A stretch of DNA of 64,000 nucleotides from a phage. This document shows positions 41,786-49,792 of the stretch, piece by piece (the first letter of the stretch is position 1; each line of letters starts with the position of its first letter). Below the pieces are notes generated by a model. It searched no databases, was not told where the DNA came from, and was given only the letters and a program-made list of their open reading frames with translations. The position numbers were made by a program, and so were the translations under genes. The stretch lies in assembly GCA_012225525.1 (NCBI GenBank), contig GCA_012225525.1_3923.1; one strand, 5' to 3'.

Positions 41786-41949
41786 AGATAATCCTCTTGT
41801 CTTCTGTAATTTTGAAAGAACAGGTACAGACCAATTTCAGAGGATGAATAGTAGATTAACTCTACCCTTTTTGATTCCTTACAGTGATTGGTATTCTTAC
41901 CTTTCTTCGGTTTATTTGATTTTCTCATTAAGTCTCCTTTGTAGAACAA
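41767..41949 (-). CDS. small basic hypothetical protein
   Basis: Track ORF, 60 aa. Confidence 0.3.
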   Translation of the reverse strand: MFYKGDLMRKSNKPKKGKNTNHCKESKRVELIYYSSSEIGLYLFFQNYRRQEDYLCVVPN

Positions 41950-42019
41950 GGCAGACCTACAGCTTTAAGTAAGATGGTACAGTAATCCATACAACAAGTC
42001 AAGAACTATTGCAAGTTAA

Positions 42020-42170
42020 AAAAGTTGTTGACAAAGTACTTGACAAGGTGTAGGCTTATAAATACTTAGAAGATAACTTAAAAGGTTCCTCTAAAAAGGC
42101 TATTTAAACAGATATCTTTCTGGATATCTATCTTTTATCTTAAAAGCCTTTTAAGAGGTCTTATAAGAGG
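42020..42170. promoter_or_regulatory. divergent promoter/operator region
   Basis: TTGACA-like hexamers at about 42025-42050; palindrome AGATATCTTTCTGGATATCT; TTAAAAG/TTATAAGAGG motifs also seen in 32.2-33.7 kb. Confidence 0.4.
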
Positions 42171-42177
42171 CATACCA

Positions 42178-42549
42178 ATGAAAAACAGAACAAACAAAGG
42201 CCAGTTTAAAAAAGGCCAGTCTGGAAACCCATCTGGAAGACCAAAAGGCTCTCGTAACAAAAGCTCACTTGTAAAAGCTCAACTGACCATTGATAATTCT
42301 GCTGAGTTTGCTGCAAAGTTGTTTGAGGCGATTGTTACAAGGGACGCGGCTAAGCTTGCAGAGTTTGGGTTAAACACAGACGACGTAACCATCAAGAGCA
42401 TGATTGAGGTCGGTAAAACTATCATGACCCACTCAGCAGGTGAGATGAAAGCAATTGCAGCAGATACTAAGAAGACTCCTGATAATGGTGGTCAGTCTCA
42501 GACAGATAACAAACCAACGTTCTCTGCTGTTGCAACCCTTAAAAAATAA
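42178..42549 (+). CDS. hypothetical protein with N-terminal GNPSGRPKG motif (possible nucleic-acid binding)
   Basis: KGQSGNPSGRPKGSRNK near N-terminus. Confidence 0.4.
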   Translation: MKNRTNKGQFKKGQSGNPSGRPKGSRNKSSLVKAQLTIDNSAEFAAKLFEAIVTRDAAKLAEFGLNTDDVTIKSMIEVGKTIMTHSAGEMKAIAADTKKTPDNGGQSQTDNKPTFSAVATLKK

Positions 42550-42561
42550 TTTTAAAAGATG

Positions 42562-42595
42562 TTGACAGACTCTATAAAGTTGCTCTAAAGTCTGT
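42562..42595 (+). promoter_or_regulatory. promoter-like TTGACA embedded in hairpin GACAGACT...AGTCTGTC
   Basis: TTGACA at 42562; 8-bp inverted repeat spans spacer. Confidence 0.35.
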
Positions 42596-42630
42596 CACAT
42601 CAAACAACAAATGAGAGAAGAGAGTAAAAT

Positions 42631-44046
42631 ATGAGCGAATTATTTAAACATGCGCACCTTCATGCAGGTCGAACTGAAAATGGTGCTGTAAACCATACTT
42701 CATCAATGTCTACTCTTGTAGACTTTTACAAAGCTGCTGGTTCAAGCCGTAGCAATGTAGAAATCTTACCAGACTTGTTCTACAAAGCTTTGCGTGAGGA
42801 TGTTGATGTTGCAGTTCGTATTTTACTGCATATGCGAGATGTACGAGAAGGCATGGGTGAGCGTAAAGCCTTCAGAACTGTTTTGCTTCAAGCGATTGAA
42901 GATGAAGTTTTAGAGCCTACGCAGGTTCTTCGCATTATGGATAAGATTGCAGAACTTGGTCGTTTTGATGACTTCAAAATCTTTGTAGGTACTCGTTTCG
43001 AGACAGATGCCTTCAAGCATTTAGAAGCAGCATTACTAGACCCTGCAACAGCAGGTTTGGCGGCTAAGTGGTTACCACGAGTCAAACCACGTCATAAGCA
43101 GTTTGTAAAACGTTTCTGCAAGTTTGCCAACTTGAGTGAGAAAGAGTACCGCACACTGTTGTCTGCACTATCTGATACAGTTGAGCAAAAAATCTCTGCT
43201 AATGAGTTTGGTAAGATTGACTACAGTAAGATTCCTTCACTTGCTGCTGCACGTTACCAAAAACTGTTTAACCGTAAAGATGGAGAGCGTTACAAAGCTT
43301 ACATCGAGTCCTTATCAAAAGGTGAGACTAAGATTAACGCTGGTGCTGTTTACCCATACGATGTGATTAAATCTTTCAAGTATGGTAATGCAGATGTTGC
43401 TAATGAGCAGTGGAAAGCACTACCAAACTGGATGGCAGAAGGTGAAAACATCTTGTGTATGTCTGATGTATCAAGTTCAATGTCTTGGGTGAATTTTGGC
43501 TCCATTACTGCTCTGGATATTGGTGTATCACTTGCCTTGTATGTAGCAGAACGCAATACAGGTTGCTTTAAGAATGAGTTGATGGTTTATTCGACAAACC
43601 CTCACTTCATCGAACTGAGTGGTGATTTACGAAACCGTCATCGTCAGGTGATGCGACACGTTGAATATGGCTCAACTAACTTACAAGCAGCTTTTGACCG
43701 CATTCTTGAAACAGGTAAAAGAAACAACTTGACTCAGAAAGATATGCCAAGTAAGCTTATCATCTTCTCCGATATGGAGTTCAATCAGGTTGATGGAGCT
43801 AACGGTCGTACAAACTTTGAAGCAATTCAGAGTAAGTACAAAAAAGCTGGATATGAGATGCCACAACTGGTATTCTGGTACTTAGCAAACCGTAATGGTA
43901 CTTGCGAAGTATCTGTTAAGGATAACGGTGTAGCAATGGTATCAGGGTTCTCTCCAGCCACTTTAAAAGCTCTGCTTGGTGGTGAGAAGTTTGACCCAAT
44001 CAGTGTAATGCTCAAAGCAGTAATGATTGACCGTTATATCTGGTAA
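42631..44046 (+). CDS. von Willebrand factor A (vWA) domain protein with MIDAS motif
   Basis: DVSSSMS (DxSxS) MIDAS motif about residue 280; 471 aa; sits immediately upstream of the tRNA array. Confidence 0.5.
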   Translation: MSELFKHAHLHAGRTENGAVNHTSSMSTLVDFYKAAGSSRSNVEILPDLFYKALREDVDVAVRILLHMRDVREGMGERKAFRTVLLQAIEDEVLEPTQVLRIMDKIAELGRFDDFKIFVGTRFETDAFKHLEAALLDPATAGLAAKWLPRVKPRHKQFVKRFCKFANLSEKEYRTLLSALSDTVEQKISANEFGKIDYSKIPSLAAARYQKLFNRKDGERYKAYIESLSKGETKINAGAVYPYDVIKSFKYGNADVANEQWKALPNWMAEGENILCMSDVSSSMSWVNFGSITALDIGVSLALYVAERNTGCFKNELMVYSTNPHFIELSGDLRNRHRQVMRHVEYGSTNLQAAFDRILETGKRNNLTQKDMPSKLIIFSDMEFNQVDGANGRTNFEAIQSKYKKAGYEMPQLVFWYLANRNGTCEVSVKDNGVAMVSGFSPATLKALLGGEKFDPISVMLKAVMIDRYIW

Positions 44047-44064
44047 AAAGTTTTAAAAAGGGTA

Positions 44065-44093
44065 TTGACAATGTGTTTAATACCCTTTAATAT
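44065..44093 (+). promoter_or_regulatory. sigma70-like promoter for tRNA array, -35 inside hairpin
   Basis: TTGACA-17-TAATAT; flanking inverted repeat AAGGGTATT/AATACCCTT. Confidence 0.5.
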
Positions 44094-44211
44094 GTTCTAC
44101 ATAGAAACGAAATGAGAGCTTTTCTAAGATACTGAAAAATATTTTAAAAAAGTTCTTGACAACCACTAAAAAATAATGTTAAAGTGGTTACATAGAGTTT
44201 GAAAAGTTTAT

Positions 44212-44288
44212 CTCTGTTTAGCTCAGCTTGGTAGAGCGTTCCGTTTGGGGCGGTAAGGCCGGAGGTTCAAGTCCTCCAACAGAGACCA
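44212..44288 (+). tRNA. tRNA-Pro (anticodon TGG)
   Basis: Manual cloverleaf; T-arm GGAGG-TTCAAGT-CCTCC; CCA encoded. Confidence 0.7.
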
Positions 44289-44295
44289 AATTAAT

Positions 44296-44373
44296 GTTCC
44301 AGTAGACAAAATGGTAAAGTCACCACTCTTTCAAAGTGGATATCTGAGGGTTCAAATCCCTTCTGGAACGCCA
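44296..44373 (+). tRNA. tRNA-Glu (anticodon TTC)
   Basis: Acceptor GTTCCAG/CTGGAAC; anticodon loop CTTTCAA. Confidence 0.7.
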
Positions 44374-44463
44374 GTTTTGACAGAAGACCAATTACAGCAA
44401 ACTTAATCTACTCATCTGAAAGTTAATCGGACAAAGAAGATATTTGGTCTGGTCATTAAGAAT

Positions 44464-44540
44464 TGCGGGTATAGAGAAAGGGCGTCTCACATGTCTCATT
44501 AGCATGGTATCGGCAGGTTCGACTCCTGCACCCGCCTCCA
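44464..44540 (+). tRNA. tRNA-like element, anticodon arm unresolved
   Basis: Perfect T-arm GCAGG-TTCGACT-CCTGC and CCA end; internal GTCTCA duplication. Confidence 0.3.
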
Positions 44541-44623
44541 AATTTACAGAAGACCGTTTACAGCAATATTTATTAAATTTTTAGCGGAAAAATTGAAAGA
44601 TACGGTCTGGTAATACTAAACAT

Positions 44624-44700
44624 GGTTAGGAAGCACATAAGGTATGTGCGGTCGCCTGTTAAGCGAATGGCACAGGGTTCGAATCCCTGACTAACCGCCA
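44624..44700 (+). tRNA. tRNA-Asn (anticodon GTT)
   Basis: Anticodon loop CTGTTAA; T-arm CAGGG-TTCGAAT-CCCTG. Confidence 0.7.
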
Positions 44701-44769
44701 AATTTAGGAGAGAAGCGATTGCTCACCGATTTGTAAGGTGCAAGTCCTTAGCCTGAATAGAAATCAAAT

Positions 44770-44857
44770 GTGTCGTTATCCCGTAGATGGTAGCGGTGGG
44801 GACTGTAAATCCCTTGTCATTGAGACTCGGTAGGTTCGACTCCTACACGGCACACCA
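44770..44857 (+). tRNA. tRNA-Tyr (anticodon GTA), long variable arm
   Basis: Anticodon loop CTGTAAA; 88 nt. Confidence 0.7.
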
Positions 44858-44863
44858 AATAAA

Positions 44864-44941
44864 GGTTATGTAGTTTAATCTGGTTAAAATACTCCCCTGT
44901 CACGGGAGATGATGAGGGTTCAAATCCCTTCATAACCGCCA
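44864..44941 (+). tRNA. tRNA-Asp (anticodon GTC)
   Basis: Acceptor GGTTATG/CATAACC; anticodon stem-loop CTCCC-CTGTCAC-GGGAG. Confidence 0.75.
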
Positions 44942-45370
44942 ATTTTGAGAGGGCTATTTAGCCCCTCCCTTAAAGAGTTCTTACGAGTATTCTTTAAAGG
45001 AGCAGAAGACCAAATACAGCAAGAATGTATGAAATTTCAAGCCAATTCAATTTTGAAAATTTAAAACTTGGTCTGGCTCAACAAATTTACAGAAGACCGT
45101 TTACAGCAAAACTTAAACAATCTATTTCTCCGGTAAAGAAAAGGCGAAGGTTCGATTCCTTCACTCGGCAGATGTCGAGTTGGTGTAATGGTAGCACTTA
45201 AGATGATAAACAACGGTCTGGTAATTATCTTTGTAGATAAGTTATTAAGCTTACCTGTGAGTATGCGACCACAAAGGGTGAAAGGGTAAATTCTAGATTT
45301 AAACCCAAAAAGGCACATCGCTACAGACCTTAAGCAAGTCTGGGTAGCTTATCTACAAAGATAATTTAAT

Positions 45371-45446
45371 GGAAGTGTAGCAGAATGGTGATGCGGCAGA
45401 CTTTTAATCTGACAGGCGATGGGTTCGAATCCCTCCACTTCTACCA
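45371..45446 (+). tRNA. tRNA-Lys (anticodon TTT)
   Basis: Anticodon loop CTTTTAA; T-loop TTCGAAT. Confidence 0.65.
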
Positions 45447-45524
45447 AATTCACCCTTAACTGAGAAACACCTGCGCGGCTGGAAACACCCACTCAACAGT
45501 TTCTCTAACTAGGGTACTTATTCT

Positions 45525-45601
45525 GGTTCAGTCGCAGATAAGGTAATGCAAGGGTCTCATAAGCCCTATGAATGTGGGTTCGATTCCCATCTGAACCTCC
45601 A
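45525..45601 (+). tRNA. tRNA-Met or Ile2 (anticodon CAT)
   Basis: Acceptor GGTTCAG/CTGAACC; anticodon loop CTCATAA. Confidence 0.7.
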
Positions 45602-45602
45602 A

Positions 45603-45678
45603 GCTGGTATAGTTAAGAAGGTTATAACACTCCCCTGATAAGGGAACATCGGTGGTTCGATTCCACCTACCAGTACCA
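45603..45678 (+). tRNA. tRNA-Ile (anticodon GAT)
   Basis: Anticodon loop CTGATAA; T-arm GGTGG-TTCGATT-CCACC. Confidence 0.7.
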
Positions 45679-45693
45679 ATTTCAATAAAGTTG

Positions 45694-45722
45694 TTGACAT
45701 TGAGATGTGACTACTTTATAGT
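45694..45722 (+). promoter_or_regulatory. sigma70-like promoter inside tRNA array
   Basis: TTGACA-17-TATAGT. Confidence 0.5.
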
Positions 45723-45924
45723 AACCTTAGTTTTCGTTGCGTAGCGTCTATTTTGCAAATTTAAAATAAATGCAAACGACAATGTTTTTCTGGCAGTAGC
45801 TTGATAGGCTAAACACCAGTGAGGTCTTCCAATCCCTCATCAAAGAATTTGGCGTACTCGCCCACGGTATGATTAATAAGGTGGGCATCTTTAAGGGCTT
45901 TCTAAGAGAGTCTTTAAAGATAAT

Positions 45925-46001
45925 GCACCCTTAGTTCAATTGGATAGAGCAACGGTCTTCTAAATCGTTAGTTACAGGTTCGAATCCTGTAGGGTGTACC
46001 A
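45925..46001 (+). tRNA. tRNA-Arg (anticodon TCT)
   Basis: Anticodon loop CTTCTAA; T-arm ACAGG-TTCGAAT-CCTGT. Confidence 0.7.
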
Positions 46002-46143
46002 AATAGTTAGCAGATTACTTAGACGGCCTTAGCGGGTCTTCCTGTAGGGAGGTGGTCTGTATCTCATGTTTTCCAGAACATGTAAATAATCTGAGAAGAA
46101 GCTTGACAGTGTTGAGATAACAGGGTAAGCTTCGAATTATAAT

Positions 46144-46226
46144 ATGGGACGATGTTAAGACTCTAAGGCATGAGCAACGGCCTCCAAAACCGTTTCAAAG
46201 GGGTTCAACTCCTCCGTCCCATGCCA
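46144..46226 (+). tRNA. tRNA, probably Trp (anticodon CCA), atypically long D region
   Basis: Perfect acceptor ATGGGAC/GTCCCAT, CCA end, candidate loop CTCCAAA; 83 nt. Confidence 0.4.
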
Positions 46227-46239
46227 AAGTCTTATTAGG

Positions 46240-46327
46240 GGTAGGTAGCGGCTAATGGCAGCCAAACAGTCTTGAAAACTGTTGCCACTGTAGAGATACG
46301 GTGAGGGTTCGACTCCTTTACTTACCG
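46240..46327 (+). tRNA. tRNA-Ser (anticodon TGA), long variable arm
   Basis: Anticodon stem-loop ACAGT-CTTGAAA-ACTGT. Confidence 0.7.
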
Positions 46328-46483
46328 CCTAATAAGATTTACTCCGTCCATGCTTGTTCGCATTGTCGGTTTATCCCTCGTGTATTGTCGTACACTGTCA
46401 AAGCACCTAGTAGGTGTCACGGAGAAGAGATAATATCAAGCTCTCCAAAGGTTCTAGTCACCGGATTAAACAAGACTATGCAA

Positions 46484-46503
46484 AGACCTATTTAGGTCTT
46501 TTT
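46484..46503 (+). terminator. intrinsic terminator within tRNA region
   Basis: AGACCT-ATTT-AGGTCT followed by TTTT. Confidence 0.5.
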
Positions 46504-46582
46504 AGAGGGCTTCTAAGGTTATTACAGCTTGTTGTGGAACCTTGTTGCTTAGGTTCTTAGAAGTTCTCTAAAAAGATTTAAT

Positions 46583-46660
46583 GGGAGATTGACGGTAATT
46601 GGTAAACCTACCATCCTTAGAAGTTGGTGTTTGAGGGTTCGAATCCCTTGTCTCCCACCA
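46583..46660 (+). tRNA. tRNA with anticodon TAG (Leu-type) but short variable loop
   Basis: Anticodon loop CTTAGAA; discriminator A; 5-nt variable loop. Confidence 0.55.
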
Positions 46661-46667
46661 AATTAAT

Positions 46668-46743
46668 GCAGGTGTAGCAAAATGGTTATGCGGCTGACTC
46701 TTAATCAGTAAGACGATGGGTTCAATTCCCTCCACCTGTACCA
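46668..46743 (+). tRNA. tRNA-Lys (anticodon CTT)
   Basis: Anticodon loop CTCTTAA. Confidence 0.65.
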
Positions 46744-46749
46744 AACAAT

Positions 46750-46825
46750 GGGGTCATAGTTTATATGGTTAAAATTCGAGTTTTGCAAACTTGGGAACTG
46801 AGTTCAATTCTCAGTGACTCCACCA
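46750..46825 (+). tRNA. tRNA-Ala (anticodon TGC)
   Basis: Anticodon loop TTTGCAA; T-arm CTGAG-TTCAATT-CTCAG. Confidence 0.7.
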
Positions 46826-46831
46826 ATTAGT

Positions 46832-46906
46832 GCATCCATAGTTTAAACGGGAAAATTACAGTCTTCCAAACTGAGGTTGAGGGTTCGATTCCCTCTGGAT
46901 GCTCCA
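46832..46906 (+). tRNA. tRNA-Gly (anticodon TCC)
   Basis: Acceptor GCATCCA/TGGATGC; anticodon loop CTTCCAA. Confidence 0.7.
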
Positions 46907-46913
46907 AATTAAT

Positions 46914-46989
46914 GCTCCTATCGTATAATTGGCTATTACGGTTGCCTTGTAAGTAACTTATCAGGGTTCGAATCCTTGTGGGAGCACCA
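46914..46989 (+). tRNA. tRNA-Thr (anticodon TGT)
   Basis: Anticodon stem-loop GTTGC-CTTGTAA-GTAAC. Confidence 0.7.
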
Positions 46990-47085
46990 ATTTAGAGGTC
47001 AAGTGAAAGACCGCTTTGAGTCAACTGAAGACCGTAACAAATCCCACGGAGTTGAGTTAGCGGAACAACTTCAGACCTCTTTCAT
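46990..47085 (+). ncRNA. candidate structured spacer RNA
   Basis: Closing inverted repeat AGAGGTC...GACCTCT enclosing TGAAGACCGTAACAAATCC. Confidence 0.3.
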
Positions 47086-47160
47086 ACTCGCTTAGTTTAT
47101 ATGGTAAAACATCACCCTTACAAGATGAAGAAAAAGGTTCAAGTCCTTTAGTGAGTACCA
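47086..47160 (+). tRNA. tRNA-Val (anticodon TAC)
   Basis: Anticodon loop CTTACAA; T-arm AAAGG-TTCAAGT-CCTTT. Confidence 0.6.
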
Positions 47161-47161
47161 T

Positions 47162-47239
47162 GTTCCAGTATCCCAATTGGCAGAGGATGCAAGCTCAAAC
47201 CTTGTACTAGTGACGGTTCGAATCCGTCTTGGAACACCA
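47162..47239 (+). tRNA. tRNA with anticodon CAA (Leu-type) but short variable loop
   Basis: Anticodon stem-loop GCAAG-CTCAAAC-CTTGT; 6-nt variable loop; discriminator A. Confidence 0.55.
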
Positions 47240-47255
47240 ATTTTAGGAGAACACT

Positions 47256-47363
47256 ATGAGTAATAAATCAATTGCAAAAAAGTTTATAGCGTCATTCAAA
47301 AACAGGCGTAAAAACAACTCTTGTGAAAAACTGTATGGTGTTCTTGTAGGTAAGCAGGATTAG
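47256..47363 (+). CDS. very small ORF (35 aa) with strong RBS inside tRNA array
   Basis: TAGGAGAACACTATG; stop overlaps 5' end of the next tRNA. Confidence 0.2.
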   Translation: MSNKSIAKKFIASFKNRRKNNSCEKLYGVLVGKQD

Positions 47364-47429
47364 TTCAAATGGATAGAGCAACAGTCTACGAAGCTGTTAA
47401 TAGGGGTTCGAATCCCTTATCCTGCGCCA
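47354..47429 (+). tRNA. tRNA-Arg (anticodon ACG)
   Basis: Perfect acceptor GCAGGAT/ATCCTGC; anticodon loop CTACGAA. Confidence 0.7.
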
Positions 47430-47448
47430 ATTTAAAGAGGCTATTTAA

Positions 47449-48006
47449 ATGAGATACTTGAAGTATGCTTCATGGATTTTCTTAGCTTTGCTAGAGCCAT
47501 TGGCAGCAATCTTAGCAGTTATCTTAGCACCTTTTGTAGTTCCATTTTACAGTGAGAAGAAAGGACACTTACCTTTTGGATTCAGATGGATGGAGACATA
47601 TGACAACCCGATTGATGGTGATGAAGGTCACGTTAAAAGATGGGCTAAGATTAGAAAGATTGGTAAGCTTGGTGTCTATTTGCAGAGAGTTGGATGGCTC
47701 TGGAGAAACAAAGCTTATAACTTCTCTTACCATGTGTTAGGAAGAGATGTAAAAGATGTTACTAAGTGGAAAGGCAATATCAACGTAAGTTCTGACCCTG
47801 AAGATAATCAGACAGGTTATCTCCTAATGTGGAACAGTAATGCTTGGGGATTATTCGCTTTTATCCCATCAATTAAAGTCTTTGGTAAACAATTCTACTG
47901 GAGAATTTATGTTGGATGGAAGCTAAAAAGTGTTGTCCCAGAAGAAAGAGCATTCTCAAGGGAAAGAGTTATGTTGGCATTCTTTATTCATCCACTGAGA
48001 AAGTAA
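47449..48006 (+). CDS. membrane protein embedded in tRNA array
   Basis: 185 aa; N-terminal hydrophobic segments. Confidence 0.5.
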   Translation: MRYLKYASWIFLALLEPLAAILAVILAPFVVPFYSEKKGHLPFGFRWMETYDNPIDGDEGHVKRWAKIRKIGKLGVYLQRVGWLWRNKAYNFSYHVLGRDVKDVTKWKGNINVSSDPEDNQTGYLLMWNSNAWGLFAFIPSIKVFGKQFYWRIYVGWKLKSVVPEERAFSRERVMLAFFIHPLRK

Positions 48007-48014
48007 AGATTTAA

Positions 48015-48090
48015 AGGGGATTAGTTTACAAGGTTAAAACCTCGGTCTTTGAAATCGAAGAAGTTGGTTCAATTCCAACATCCCCCGCCA
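48015..48090 (+). tRNA. tRNA-Gln (anticodon TTG)
   Basis: Anticodon stem-loop TCGGT-CTTTGAA-ATCGA; T-arm GTTGG-TTCAATT-CCAAC. Confidence 0.65.
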
Positions 48091-48092
48091 AT

Positions 48093-48171
48093 GCTCCATT
48101 ACTCCAATTGGCAGAGAGGCCAGACTTAAAATCTGTGTTATGTATCGGTTCGAATCCGATATGGAGTACCA
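48093..48171 (+). tRNA. tRNA with anticodon TAA (Leu-type) but short variable loop
   Basis: Anticodon loop CTTAAAA; 7-nt variable loop; discriminator A. Confidence 0.55.
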
Positions 48172-48176
48172 AATTT

Positions 48177-48252
48177 AGCGGTATAGCATAACTGGCAATG
48201 CAGCAGTCTCTGAAGCTGTCTTATTAAGGTTCAAATCCTTATGCCGCTGCCA
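48177..48252 (+). tRNA. tRNA-Gln (anticodon CTG)
   Basis: Anticodon loop CTCTGAA; T-arm TAAGG-TTCAAAT-CCTTA. Confidence 0.65.
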
Positions 48253-48283
48253 CTTCTAAGGATTCTTACGAGAGTCCTTAAAT

Positions 48284-48359
48284 GTGGCCTTATCATAAAT
48301 GGTAATGACCCATGCTGTGAACATGGTCTATACGGGTTCAAATCCCGTAGGTCACCCCA
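48284..48359 (+). tRNA. tRNA-His (anticodon GTG)
   Basis: Anticodon stem-loop CCATG-CTGTGAA-CATGG. Confidence 0.7.
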
Positions 48360-48364
48360 ATTTA

Positions 48365-48439
48365 TAGTCCAAGTAGCTTATATGGTTAAAGCGCGTGTCT
48401 GAAAAACATGAGAAGAGGGTTCAAATCCCACTGGACTAC
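48365..48439 (+). tRNA. tRNA-Phe (anticodon GAA), CCA not encoded
   Basis: Acceptor TAGTCCA/TGGACTA; anticodon loop CTGAAAA. Confidence 0.65.
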
Positions 48440-48457
48440 CAATTTCAAAGGTGCTTA

Positions 48458-49192
48458 ATGAAAGAGATGACAGAACAAGGTAAGGAGATTTTTAATCTCT
48501 TAAAAACTGGTAAAGGGTTTTCTAACCCCCTTATTACTGGTGCAGCAGTTCTCGGTGGAACCGTAGCTGCCTCTACATCACTTGTAAGCTCTATTAGTTC
48601 TGTATCAGACCCTACAGTAAAGGATAAGCTTGTTGCTGCTGGACTTACAACAGTTCTGCTTAACAGCTTTACCACGAGTCTGACAAGCACTACATCAACT
48701 ACCAAAACACTGACAGATTACGGTCAAAAGTCCATTGATGAGTTTTCATCACGTATGCAGGTAGCAAAAGGTTATTCTAATGTTATGGGTGCAGCAGGTG
48801 AACAAGTTGGCTGTACACCATTTAGTGGTATTATGGGTGTTGCTACAGAGTATGGTCAAAAAGCTATTGATATGATTAACAGTGCACTAGACGGTGTTAA
48901 TGATGTATTAAGTGACTTACAAGACGCTATTGACAAAGGTCTTGATACTATTTCTGATTTAGCTAACCAAGCTGTTAGTAAGATTAATGAAGGTATCTCG
49001 AAGATTACAGCTTATGCAGATGAAGTTGTGCAGATGATTGAAGAAGAAGCTGCCCTTATTGCAGAGTACCTTAAAACGAATATCAATGGGTTCTTAGCAG
49101 GTATCTTACCAGACTGGTTTGATGATGCTTGTAAAACTGGTGTAATTGACACTATTGCAACACCAGAAATGAAGAACGCATTACAGAAATAA
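48458..49192 (+). CDS. Ser/Thr-rich hypothetical protein
   Basis: ATG 48458 after AAAGG; track start 48395 lies inside tRNA-Phe. Confidence 0.5.
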   Translation: MKEMTEQGKEIFNLLKTGKGFSNPLITGAAVLGGTVAASTSLVSSISSVSDPTVKDKLVAAGLTTVLLNSFTTSLTSTTSTTKTLTDYGQKSIDEFSSRMQVAKGYSNVMGAAGEQVGCTPFSGIMGVATEYGQKAIDMINSALDGVNDVLSDLQDAIDKGLDTISDLANQAVSKINEGISKITAYADEVVQMIEEEAALIAEYLKTNINGFLAGILPDWFDDACKTGVIDTIATPEMKNALQK

Positions 49193-49194
49193 AT

Positions 49195-49287
49195 GGAAGA
49201 TTAACCCTAAAAGGTAAGGGAGCAGTTTGCTAAACTGCCAGTAGCTGAGAAATCGGTGTACCAGTTCAAGTCTGGTATCTTCCTCCA
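49195..49287 (+). tRNA. tRNA-Ser (anticodon GCT), long variable arm
   Basis: Perfect acceptor GGAAGAT/ATCTTCC; anticodon stem-loop GCAGT-TTGCTAA-ACTGC. Confidence 0.75.
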
Positions 49288-49291
49288 ATTT

Positions 49292-49367
49292 GAATCCGTG
49301 ACAGAAATGGCTATGTGCCTGTCTGCAAAACAGGTTTATAAGGGTTCGAGTCCCTTCGGATTCTCCA
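49292..49367 (+). tRNA. tRNA-Cys (anticodon GCA)
   Basis: Perfect acceptor GAATCCG/CGGATTC; anticodon stem-loop CCTGT-CTGCAAA-ACAGG. Confidence 0.75.
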
Positions 49368-49406
49368 AGTTATTTTACTCTCTCTCTCAATTAAAATAAT
49401 AATAAT

Positions 49407-49466
49407 GCCCTGCTATAAGTATTCTTCCTTTCGCTACCGAAGAGTATTTTTAGACAGGGCTTTTTT
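49407..49466 (+). terminator. intrinsic terminator closing the tRNA array
   Basis: GCCCTG...CAGGGC stem followed by TTTTTT. Confidence 0.6.
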
Positions 49467-49591
49467 ACAGAGTTATACTTTATAAGAAGTCTTATACAGT
49501 ATGTCTCTGACGTACATTGTGGTTTCTCCTTGACGGTCTCTGTACCGTCTTTTTTAAGGGGAAACATGGTTAACTATTTGGAGAAAACATA

Positions 49592-49792
49592 ATGAGCGAG
49601 ACCGTTTATAAAGAACTTTATGAAGCTAATAAAAAGCTAGAATTTATGCAGAATACTATCATGGCAATTGCAGACAGATTGTCTGTAGCAACAGGTATTG
49701 ATATTAAAGAAGCATCTATGGATGCACTTCTTGATGCTGTTGATGCAAAGTTCGAAGTTAAGAAAGAAGAGACTGCTACAGACTCTGAATAA
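49592..49792 (+). CDS. small protein upstream of terminase (possible small terminase subunit or DNA-binding partner)
   Basis: 66 aa; position only. Confidence 0.35.
   Translation: MSETVYKELYEANKKLEFMQNTIMAIADRLSVATGIDIKEASMDALLDAVDAKFEVKKEETATDSE

What the first reader, a model, noticed from the sequence alone, without database searches (positions are those of the whole stretch)
42631..49470. vWA/MIDAS protein immediately upstream of the tRNA and structured-RNA array (Ro60/Y-RNA-like arrangement?)
The 471-aa product of 42631-44046 has a DxSxS MIDAS motif (MSDVSSSMS), so its C-terminal half is a vWA domain; the N-terminal 280 aa are unassigned. Ro60-type RNA-binding proteins combine a helical domain with a vWA domain, and bacterial and phage Ro60 orthologs are often encoded next to tRNA-like Y RNAs. 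Here the vWA gene is followed within 170 bp by a promoter and a tRNA array containing tRNA-like oddities. This is an analogy from domain order and gene context only.
Basis: inference. Interest (0 to 1): 0.55.

Follow-up and report, generated by a model that had tools for sequence, protein, structure and literature searches.

The report
Phage Ro60-like protein with Y-like RNAs
This Felix O1-like phage encodes a divergent Ro60-type ring protein, already linked to counter-defence in a sister phage, and just downstream of it, hidden between the tRNA genes, lie four small RNAs of a widespread, apparently undescribed family that are its likely Y-RNA-like partners, one of them a circularly permuted tRNA mimic.

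Summary

New here: the likely partners are not the tRNAs but four units in the array gaps (U1-U4, 44385-45219). Each has a 7-8-bp closing stem, a single-stranded UWCAGCAA motif and a 3' G. U4 encloses a permuted tRNA-like module (V, T-arm, closed acceptor hairpin, D-arm), as in bacterial YrlA.

The same "clamp" flanks homologous genes in mycobacteriophage, Listeria, Campylobacter and Vibrio phages and many uncultured phages. A covariance model built only from distant phages gives 86 hits, all on the gene strand, in 57 of 81 loci, none in T5, and ranks U2, U1, U3 and U4 top in the window. Binding is inferred, not shown. A conserved tmRNA-like tag RNA also lies in the array.

The parts
42562..42591 (+). 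sigma-70-like promoter candidate upstream of the Ro60-like gene
   Evidence: TTGACA-18-TAAAGT, 10/12 matches. Consensus match only; the scan as a whole is not enriched over shuffles.
42631..44046 (+). Ro60-like protein gene (DUF2828 + DUF7788/vWA with MIDAS), orthologue of Bas63 gp130
   Evidence: ORF; Pfam; PHROG 850 'RNA-binding protein', E 4e-183; AF2 model pLDDT 90; Ro60 fold matches; 97.5% identical to bas63_0130.
44065..44185 (+). two sigma-70-like promoter candidates between the gene and the array
   Evidence: 44065-44093 and 44156-44185, both 10/12 matches. Suggestive only.
44212..49367 (+). array of 26 tRNA genes interrupted by ncRNA units and two ORFs
   Evidence: ARAGORN; Rfam tRNA, 24 hits at gathering score.
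44385..44451 (+). U1, short Y-like clamp unit (stem AGACCAA/TTGGTCT, motif TTACAGCAA, 3' G)
   Evidence: Exact motif; fold; CM R1, trained on distant phages only: 32.0 bits, E 1e-5.
44551..44609 (+). U2, short Y-like clamp unit (AGACCGT/ACGGTCT)
   Evidence: CM R1 best hit in the window, 37.3 bits, E 4e-7.
45007..45075 (+). U3, short Y-like clamp unit (AGACCAA/TTGGTCT)
   Evidence: CM R1 20.4 bits, E 0.011.
45094..45220 (+). U4, YrlA-like unit. Clamp 45094-45101/45212-45219; motif TACAGCAA 45102-45109; V hairpin 45125-45141; T-arm 45146-45162; closed 7-bp acceptor-like hairpin 45163-45180; D-arm 45183-45197
   Evidence: The unforced MFE fold gives this architecture. Orphan T-arm plus closed-hairpin scan. 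The acceptor hairpin covaries with the Moogle copy (ACTCGGC/GTCGAGT versus ACCCTTC/GAAGGGT, Moogle loop GCCAAACA). RNAalifold on 18 diverse units recovers the clamp, T and AS stems. CM R1 gives only a partial hit, 16.9 bits, E 0.09.
45694..45924 (+). promoter-like site (45694-45722, 11/12) and tmRNA-like tag RNA; tag frame 45772-45807 = ANDNVFLAVA**; not part of the clamp family
46143..46226 (+). non-canonical tRNA-like sequence missed by ARAGORN (7-bp acceptor stem, T-arm, GCCA end, enlarged anticodon-loop region containing CCA)
   Evidence: Rfam tRNA-Sec model 23 bits, E 0.55; fold; reading of the sequence.

Best explanation
The gene encodes a divergent member of the Ro60 fold class: a helical ring-type N-terminal domain plus a vWA domain with a complete MIDAS motif. 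The phage also encodes its RNA ligands. These are four Y-like RNAs (U1-U4) embedded in the tRNA-array transcript and probably released by the same RNase P and 3'-end processing that frees the flanking tRNAs. Each RNA has a constant 'clamp': its 5' and 3' ends pair into a 7-8-bp stem that starts with RG and ends with CY, followed by a G, with a single-stranded UWCAGCAA next to the 5' strand. The clamp is the proposed protein-binding site. It encloses a variable module, either a short A-rich loop (U1-U3) or a circularly permuted tRNA-like domain (U4), that would contact other factors. By analogy with Ro60/Y-RNA particles, the complex would tether or sequester host RNA-handling or defence proteins. 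In the sister phage Bas63 the protein is needed to overcome the Ppl defence system. What is shown: the fold, the RNA family, its covariation, and its genetic linkage to the gene. What is inferred: protein-RNA binding, the processing route and the mechanism of counter-defence.

For: RNA in the window: four exact copies of AGAAGACCNNNTACAGCAA lie within 730 bp, and the folds close with the predicted stem.

RNA family: the strict pattern gives 117 units on the gene strand and 1 on the opposite strand in 83 loci. In the 75 distant loci, 58 of 87 units lie within 700 nt of the gene and none inside it, and 24 of the 41 tRNA-free loci have a unit within 700 nt. Stem control: 95 of 185 core motifs have the closing stem, against 20-31 in three controls. 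RNAalifold on 18 tRNA-like units finds compensatory changes in 17 of 18 pairs. Clamp stem covariation is 0.989, against 0.21 when shuffled.

Covariance model: CM R1, built without any Felixounavirus sequence, ranks U2, U1, U3 and U4 as its top four hits in 64 kb on both strands. It gives 86 hits at E<=0.05, all on the gene strand, in 57 of 81 loci, and none in the T5 tRNA region.

Named phages: three tandem units lie directly after Rumpelstiltskin gp54, three directly before A511 gp57, and one directly before the Campylobacter F371 gene.

Function: deleting Bas63 g130 sensitises the phage to Ppl, and complementation reverses this (PMC11482910). Canonical Ro60 genes have tRNA-like Y RNAs within 4 kb on the same strand (PMC4201824). 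The phage phiLo Ro60 binds adjacent Y-like RNAs and host PNPase (PMC12135203).
Against: No binding or expression data exist for U1-U4. Pfam TROVE is not hit by any of 53 family members, and no PDB sequence match exists, so N-terminal homology rests on a predicted structure. The conserved motif (UWCAGCAA) is not the Ro-binding motif of known Y RNAs (GNCGAAN0-1G or GGUCCGA). Units used for the covariation counts were selected for pairing, so 'percent paired' is circular; only the strand, shuffle, T5 and held-out controls are independent. 24 of 81 loci show no CM hit. U4 scores only 16.9 bits with the short-unit model, at the level where background begins. A jumbo-phage homologue (CBB) is annotated as a structural protein.
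Confidence: 0.68

Rival explanations
1. The clamp units are cis-regulatory elements of the gene's own mRNA (leader or trailer sites for autoregulation, stability or processing) rather than stand-alone Y-like RNAs.
For: In many loci units sit within 10-100 nt of the start codon and downstream of a promoter-like site (A511, Campylobacter F371, L010, L016, L017, L044, L051, L055), or between the stop codon and a terminator (Rumpelstiltskin).
Against: In the window the units lie 339-1173 nt downstream of the gene, beyond two promoter-like sites, and are separated from it and from each other by tRNAs that are cut out of the transcript. Units occur in 2-5 copies with unrelated inserts, including complete tRNA-like domains and 150-250-nt structured RNAs. 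Some lie more than 3 kb from the gene. This rival still implies that the protein binds the clamp.
Confidence: 0.15
2. The protein acts on the phage or host tRNAs themselves (quality control or protection of damaged or misfolded tRNAs), and the clamp units are generic processing spacers of phage tRNA arrays, unrelated to the protein.
For: About 34 of 75 distant loci, plus A511, F371 and phi-pp2, have co-oriented tRNAs nearby. Ro60 is known to bind misfolded RNAs. Cluster L phages also carry an RNA ligase and a polynucleotide kinase (PMC13148394).
Against: 24 of the 41 loci with no tRNA still have a unit within 700 nt of the gene. T5's 25-tRNA array, in a 49-kb region that encodes no homologue, has no unit on either strand. 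Units cluster at the gene's ends, not across the arrays.
Confidence: 0.1
3. The protein is a virion or otherwise non-RNA-binding vWA/MIDAS protein, and its resemblance to Ro60 is only a shared scaffold.
For: The homologue in Pectobacterium phage CBB is annotated 'structural protein'. No TROVE sequence signal. The gene lies near lysis and head-decoration genes and upstream of terminase in Ounavirinae.
Against: The full-length Ro60 fold match far exceeds vWA-only matches. There is tight, strand-specific linkage to a structured RNA family across phages of four bacterial phyla. The Bas63 deletion gives a host-defence-dependent phenotype, not a structural one.
Confidence: 0.05

Closest known systems
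Bas63 (Escherichia phage JohannRWettstein) gp130, PhageMaP preprint PMC11482910
   Same: Orthologue: 97.5% identity and the same position directly upstream of the tRNA array. Reported there as structurally similar to Ro60 and as a counter to the Ppl defence system, with the suggestion that Y RNAs might hide among the tRNA genes.
   Different: That work named no RNA. Here the candidates are specific non-tRNA units (U1-U4) that belong to a family conserved far beyond Felixounavirus.
Bacterial and phage Ro60 (Rsr, TROVE domain) with YrlA/YrlB Y RNAs (Chen et al. 2014, PMC4201824)
   Same: Ring-plus-vWA protein fold. RNAs encoded within a few kb on the same strand. Several RNAs per locus, with at least one carrying a permuted tRNA-like domain (V, T, closed acceptor stem, D) and others lacking it. 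A 7-bp acceptor hairpin of the kind that made M. smegmatis YrlA an RNase P and CCA-adding substrate.
   Different: The protein is not recognised by the TROVE HMM (DUF2828 branch). The conserved 5' motif is UWCAGCAA, not GNCGAAN0-1G. The units are embedded in a tRNA array, a context that Chen et al. filtered out. Their search covered only genomes annotated with TROVE. I could not see their supplementary phage list.
Thermus phage phiLo Ro60 with Yrl1/Yrl2 (PMC12135203; PDB 9l5y)
   Different: phiLo Ro60 is a TROVE-annotated protein. Its Yrls use a CGAA motif in a stem-bulge-stem and have no tRNA-like module described.
Mycobacteriophage cluster L 'Ro-like RNA binding protein' (e.g. Rumpelstiltskin gp54, LeBron gp53)
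   Same: Same protein family, about 33% identity over the full length. Rumpelstiltskin has three clamp units, one of them tRNA-like, directly after the gene.
   Different: In the papers I found, only the protein annotation and an overexpression toxicity phenotype are published (PMC13148394); no RNA partner is described there.

Membership tests
Ro60 / TROVE proteins | TROVE domain recognisable by sequence (Pfam PF05731) | tested here: not met
   No TROVE hit for the window protein at E<=1 or for any of 53 family members at E<=10. No PDB sequence or profile hit.
Ro60 / TROVE proteins | Ro60 architecture: alpha-helical ring domain followed by a vWA domain, matched over the full length | tested here: met
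Ro60 / TROVE proteins | vWA domain with MIDAS motif (DxSxS...T...D) | tested here: met
   D279, S281, S283, T349 and D381 are invariant in 53 sequences. Pfam vWA_Ro60 is hit by 11 of 53 members, best E 1.7e-4.
Ro60 / TROVE proteins | Binds Y RNA or misfolded RNA | not testable with these tools
   Needs RIP/CLIP or EMSA.
Y RNA / YrlA | 5' and 3' ends pair to form the protein-binding stem | tested here: met
   Folds. The stem is kept with full covariation across loci. It is enriched over three controls.
Y RNA / YrlA | Conserved Ro-binding sequence GNCGAAN0-1G (bacteria) or GGUCCGA (vertebrates) near the 5' end | tested here: not met
   The conserved element at the equivalent place is UWCAGCAA. 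The motif definitions are from PMC4201824.
Y RNA / YrlA | tRNA-like domain with T-arm, closed acceptor-like stem and D-arm in permuted order | tested here: met
   U4. About 20 further units in distant loci, all on the gene strand. RNAalifold recovers the T and AS stems with compensatory changes. U1-U3 lack it, as YrlB does.
Y RNA / YrlA | Encoded within about 4 kb of the Ro60 gene on the same strand | tested here: met
   U1-U4 start 339-1048 nt after the stop codon, same strand. Family-wide: all 86 CM hits are on the gene strand.
Y RNA / YrlA | Match to a curated Rfam Y-RNA model | tested here: not met
   No Y-RNA-type hit at E<=10 in 41900-49700, nor at E<=0.5 in the Rumpelstiltskin, A511 or F371 loci. 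I did not verify that Rfam 15 contains a YrlA model.
tmRNA (for the tag RNA at 45725-45924) | Tag reading frame with a GCA resume codon and a hydrophobic C-terminus followed by stop codon(s) | tested here: met
   ANDNVFLAVA** at 45772-45807. The frame is conserved with codon-level variation in unrelated phages.
tmRNA (for the tag RNA at 45725-45924) | Attached tRNA-like domain with alanine identity (G3:U70) and a CCA end; Rfam tmRNA gathering score | tested here: not met
   Rfam tmRNA scores 15.7 bits and tmRNA_permuted 29.2 bits, against a gathering score of 47 for each. None at E<=0.01 in four homologous loci. The ARAGORN call in Moogle is a chimera. The U4 acceptor stem has C3-G70.

The most novel reading that the evidence does not exclude
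DUF2828-type Ro60-like proteins and the UWCAGCAA-clamp RNAs form an ancient, widespread phage ribonucleoprotein system. It occurs in phages of Proteobacteria, Firmicutes, Actinobacteria and Campylobacterota. One constant protein-binding clamp presents interchangeable RNA cargoes: tRNA mimics that are RNase P-cleaved and CCA-tailed, and 150-250-nt structured RNAs of unknown kind. These cargoes would act as decoys or tethers against host defence or RNA-decay factors such as Ppl. The system sits in a translation-toolkit region that also holds a TLD-less tmRNA-like tag RNA shared by many unrelated enterobacterial phages.
Probability: 0.35. Interest if true: 0.85.

Novelty: new variant of a known kind. 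Interest (0 to 1): 0.7.

Why it matters
Ro60/Y-RNA particles are conserved from bacteria to humans, yet what they do in phages is nearly unknown. The one genetic phenotype for this protein family, Bas63 gp130 countering Ppl, has no mechanism and no identified RNA. This analysis supplies concrete, coordinate-level RNA candidates with a simple mutable recognition element (stem plus CAGCAA). It shows that they travel with the gene in model phages with good genetics (Felix O1-like/BASEL Bas63, Listeria A511, cluster L mycobacteriophages, KVP40-like and Campylobacter phages). It provides a covariance model for annotating them. That turns 'some tRNAs may be Y RNAs' into directly testable experiments. 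It also extends the Y-RNA concept to a second protein branch with a different recognition motif, and it flags unannotated ncRNAs in hundreds of deposited phage genomes.

Tried and rejected
- PDB sequence searches with the protein and with a 53-sequence profile found nothing relevant. Only fold comparison worked.
- Rfam at gathering and permissive thresholds found no family for the units or their large inserts.
- ARAGORN's 'permuted tmRNA' in phage Moogle is a chimera of the U4 T-arm/acceptor-CCA, part of tRNA-Lys, and a separate tag frame 560 nt away. I rejected it as a real two-piece tmRNA.
- My first loose regex for units was background-dominated (423 versus 284). I replaced it with a strict form plus controls.
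- A search for clamps enclosing very large inserts (260-900 nt), including the ROOL-like RNA of A511, was noise (42 versus 22) and was dropped.
- The supplementary phage list of Chen et al. 2014 is not held, so I could not check whether any DUF2828-type phage was in it.
- Literature searches for DUF2828, DUF7788, 'Ro-like', 'tmRNA-like' and Felixounavirus plus tRNA-like found no description of these RNAs. The library lacks most subscription-journal papers.
- I did not test TROVE-type phage loci (for example cluster C mycobacteriophages) for the clamp.
Full report
**Identity of the window.** The region is 96-98% identical at the DNA level to Felixounavirus genomes (Escherichia and Salmonella phages of the Felix O1 type).

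**The observation.** ORF 42631-44046 (+) encodes 471 aa. ARAGORN finds 26 tRNA genes, all on the + strand, from 44212 to 49367, and Rfam confirms 24 of them at gathering score. The protein carries D279-x-S281-x-S283. In an alignment of 53 family members at 41-89% identity, D279, S281, S283, T349 and D381 are invariant, so the MIDAS motif is complete. Sigma-70-like sites lie before the gene (42562) and between the gene and the first tRNA (44065, 44156). The promoter scan as a whole is not enriched over shuffles, so these are only suggestive.

**What the protein is.** Pfam assigns DUF2828 to the N-terminal part and DUF7788 to the C-terminal part. PHROGs places it in phrog_850, 'RNA-binding protein'. 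Sequence searches of the PDB find nothing.

- An AlphaFold2 model built on the family alignment is confident: pLDDT 90, pTM 0.89.
- The 12 best Foldseek PDB matches are all Ro60/TROVE proteins aligned over the full length: Xenopus and human Ro60, Deinococcus Rsr, and Thermus phage phiLo Ro60. After them come only vWA domains.
- At sequence level no member hits Pfam TROVE, but 11 of 53 hit the Ro60-specific vWA model.

I therefore call it a Ro60-fold protein of a divergent branch, not a TROVE-family member by sequence.

**What is already known.** tblastn finds homologues in 710 phage records: Felixounaviruses, KVP40-like Vibrio phages, Aeromonas, Campylobacter, Listeria A511-like, Enterococcus, Staphylococcus and Bacillus phages, and cluster L mycobacteriophages. 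In the last group it is annotated 'Ro-like RNA binding protein'.

The PhageMaP preprint reports that Bas63 gp130 has high structural similarity to Ro60 and lies directly upstream of the tRNA genes. It reports that the gene is required to overcome the Ppl defence system, with complementation. It also speculates that some Bas63 'tRNA genes' may be Y RNAs. bas63_0130 is the orthologue of our ORF, in the same layout. No RNA partner has been named in the papers I could search.

**The RNA partners I propose.** Reading the gaps of the array shows four exact copies of AGAAGACCnnnTACAGCAA within 730 bp. Each is followed 40-110 nt later by the complement of the nnn-flanked stem and GG. I call them U1 (44385-44451), U2 (44551-44609), U3 (45007-45075) and U4 (45094-45220).

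All four fold with a closing stem. The unforced minimum-free-energy structure of U4 contains, in order:

- a V hairpin;
- a canonical T-arm (GAAGG-UUCGAUU-CCUUC);
- a closed 7-bp acceptor-like hairpin;
- a D-arm (GUGU-AAUGGUA-GCAC).

This is the circularly permuted tRNA-like layout described for bacterial YrlA. In Citrobacter phage Moogle the acceptor hairpin has changed from ACUCGGC/GUCGAGU to ACCCUUC/GAAGGGU, and its loop reads GCCAAACA, i.e. an encoded discriminator plus CCA.

**Generality and statistics.** I fetched 80 loci encoding relatives from IMG/VR, 75 of them at 38-47% identity, plus loci from named phages.

- *Permuted modules.* A scan for orphan T-arms followed by a closed hairpin found such modules only on the gene strand (28 versus 0). 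They are followed by canonical D-arms and often have N-CCA at the start of the loop.
- *Shared clamp.* The flanks of these modules share the same architecture, while the stem sequence differs completely between loci.
- *Strict pattern.* It gives 117 units on the gene strand and 1 on the other. In the distant loci 58 of 87 units lie within 700 nt of the gene, none inside it, and 24 of the 41 loci without any tRNA have one there.
- *Stem control.* 95 of 185 core motifs have the adjacent closing stem, against 20-31 with reversed, displaced or shuffled 7-mers and 17 of 91 on the opposite strand.
- *Independent folding.* RNAalifold, given 18 diverse tRNA-like units, recovers the clamp (7 bp, none broken), the T-stem (5 bp, none broken) and the acceptor hairpin. 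17 of 18 pairs show two-sided changes.
- *Held-out covariance model.* For 31 short units from distant phages only, the clamp stem has 78 two-sided-change cells against 19 when shuffled. A covariance model built from these ranks U2 (37.3 bits, E 4e-7), U1 (32.0, 1e-5), U3 (20.4, 0.011) and the 5' half of U4 (16.9, 0.09) as its four best hits in the whole 64-kb window on both strands.
- *Census.* Over 82 sources (1.13 Mb) the model gives 86 hits at E<=0.05, all on the gene strand, in 57 of 81 loci by my count.
- *T5 control.* The 49-kb T5 region with its 25 tRNAs and annotated stable RNAs has none.

In named phages the units sit next to the gene and appear co-transcribed with it. Three lie in tandem between Rumpelstiltskin gp54 and a terminator, and the middle one is tRNA-like. 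Three lie between a promoter-like site and A511 gp57. One lies 22 nt before the Campylobacter F371 gene. One lies in the tRNA region of Vibrio phage phi-pp2.

The inserts range from about 30-nt A-rich loops through tRNA-like modules to 150-250-nt structured RNAs. None matches an Rfam family.

**Caveat on the statistics.** Units were found by requiring pairing, so 'percent paired' is circular. The independent evidence is the strand asymmetry, the clustering at the gene, the shuffle controls, the T5 control and the held-out CM test.

**Mechanism.** The architecture is a constant stem-plus-motif with a variable module, several RNAs per locus, and at least one tRNA mimic. It lies on the same strand and within a few kb of a Ro60-fold gene. 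That is the definition of Y RNAs in function and layout.

I therefore propose that the protein binds the clamp, and that the variable modules tether or sequester other factors. In the window the RNAs would be liberated from the tRNA-array precursor. The Bas63 phenotype suggests an anti-defence output. All of this is inference.

The family fails two membership tests: the TROVE HMM, and the GNCGAA/GGUCCGA motif. So it is best described as a new variant, a DUF2828-type Ro60 with UWCAGCAA-clamp Y-like RNAs, rather than as canonical Rsr/YrlA. Chen et al. searched only TROVE-annotated genomes and discarded candidates that overlapped tandem tRNAs, which would explain why this family was missed.

**Adjacency to tRNAs.** About 34 of 75 distant loci have at least one tRNA or tmRNA within 7 kb, always co-oriented. 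tRNA adjacency is therefore common but not obligatory, and the clamp RNAs are the tighter companion.

**Side finding.** At about 45725-45924, after the best promoter-like site of the region (11/12), lies an RNA with the frame AUAAAU-GCA AAC GAC AAU GUU UUU CUG GCA GUA GCU UGA UAG, which reads ANDNVFLAVA** (45772-45807). It has 72-82%-identical counterparts in 596 phage records, including Kuttervirus and small Klebsiella siphoviruses.

The frame is conserved with codon-level variation (ANDNTFLAVA*, ANEEMYLAVA*, ANDAQFLAVA**), and a downstream hairpin covaries. No tRNA-like domain or Rfam tmRNA match accompanies it. I found no description of it. It is not a clamp unit, and its relation to the Ro60-like system is unknown.

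Noticed in passing
window 45694-45924 (+); tag frame 45772-45807: A tmRNA-like 'tag' RNA: a promoter-like site (11/12), then AUAAAU-GCA..., encoding ANDNVFLAVA**, directly upstream of tRNA-Arg(UCU). Counterparts occur in 596 phage records, including unrelated Kuttervirus and Klebsiella siphoviruses. The tag is conserved as a coding frame (ANDNTFLAVA*, ANEEMYLAVA*, ANDAQFLAVA**). No tRNA-like domain and no Rfam tmRNA hit accompany it.
   Followed up: partly
window 46143-46226 (+): A tRNA-like sequence missed by ARAGORN: 7-bp acceptor stem, T-arm, GCCA end, an odd long D region, and an enlarged anticodon-loop region containing CCA. Rfam tRNA-Sec model 23 bits, E 0.55.
   Followed up: partly
window 46990-47085 (+): A 96-nt intergenic hairpin structure between tRNA-Thr and tRNA-Val folds far better than shuffles: -29.3 kcal/mol, z -3.6, 0 of 200 shuffles as good. 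It has no clamp motif.
   Followed up: no
window 46470-46587 (+): A terminator-like hairpin (aaagacctatttaggtcttttt) followed by a long, nearly perfect hairpin. Rfam gives a chance-level MIR473 hit, 30 bits.
   Followed up: no
L010 5840-6064, L011 2843-3060, L014 4973-5184, L017 628-833, L031 6409-6659: A conserved 205-250-nt structured RNA enclosed by the clamp (AGAGTGG...CCACTCT) with a shared core (CCTAGGACGATGTAAAAGGTTCGAAC ... CCCTTACACCACTCT). No Rfam family matches it. Other large clamp-enclosed RNAs lie upstream of the gene in L044, L051 and L055.
   Followed up: partly
L085 (Listeria phage A511) 3465-4016: A ROOL-like RNA (87.5 bits, E 2e-16, full model length, below the gathering score of 99.1) about 1 kb upstream of the Ro60-like gene, between tRNAs. 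It is not enclosed by a clamp.
   Followed up: partly
L045 13694-14069; also L035, L041, L056: A bona fide tmRNA gene (Rfam 80.8 bits in L045) lies 5-6 kb downstream of the Ro60-like gene, and ARAGORN calls tmRNAs in three further loci.
   Followed up: no
L088 (phage T5) 15285-26567: The T5 record annotates eight 'stable RNAs with unknown functions', some tRNA-like, inside its tRNA region. None has the clamp.
   Followed up: partly
window 48395-49192 (+): The listed ORF starts at a GTG that overlaps tRNA-Phe (48366-48441). The PHROG 2114 match begins at residue 28, so the true start is probably the downstream ATG (MKEMTEQ...). Weak similarity to tape-measure and GTP-binding families.
   Followed up: no
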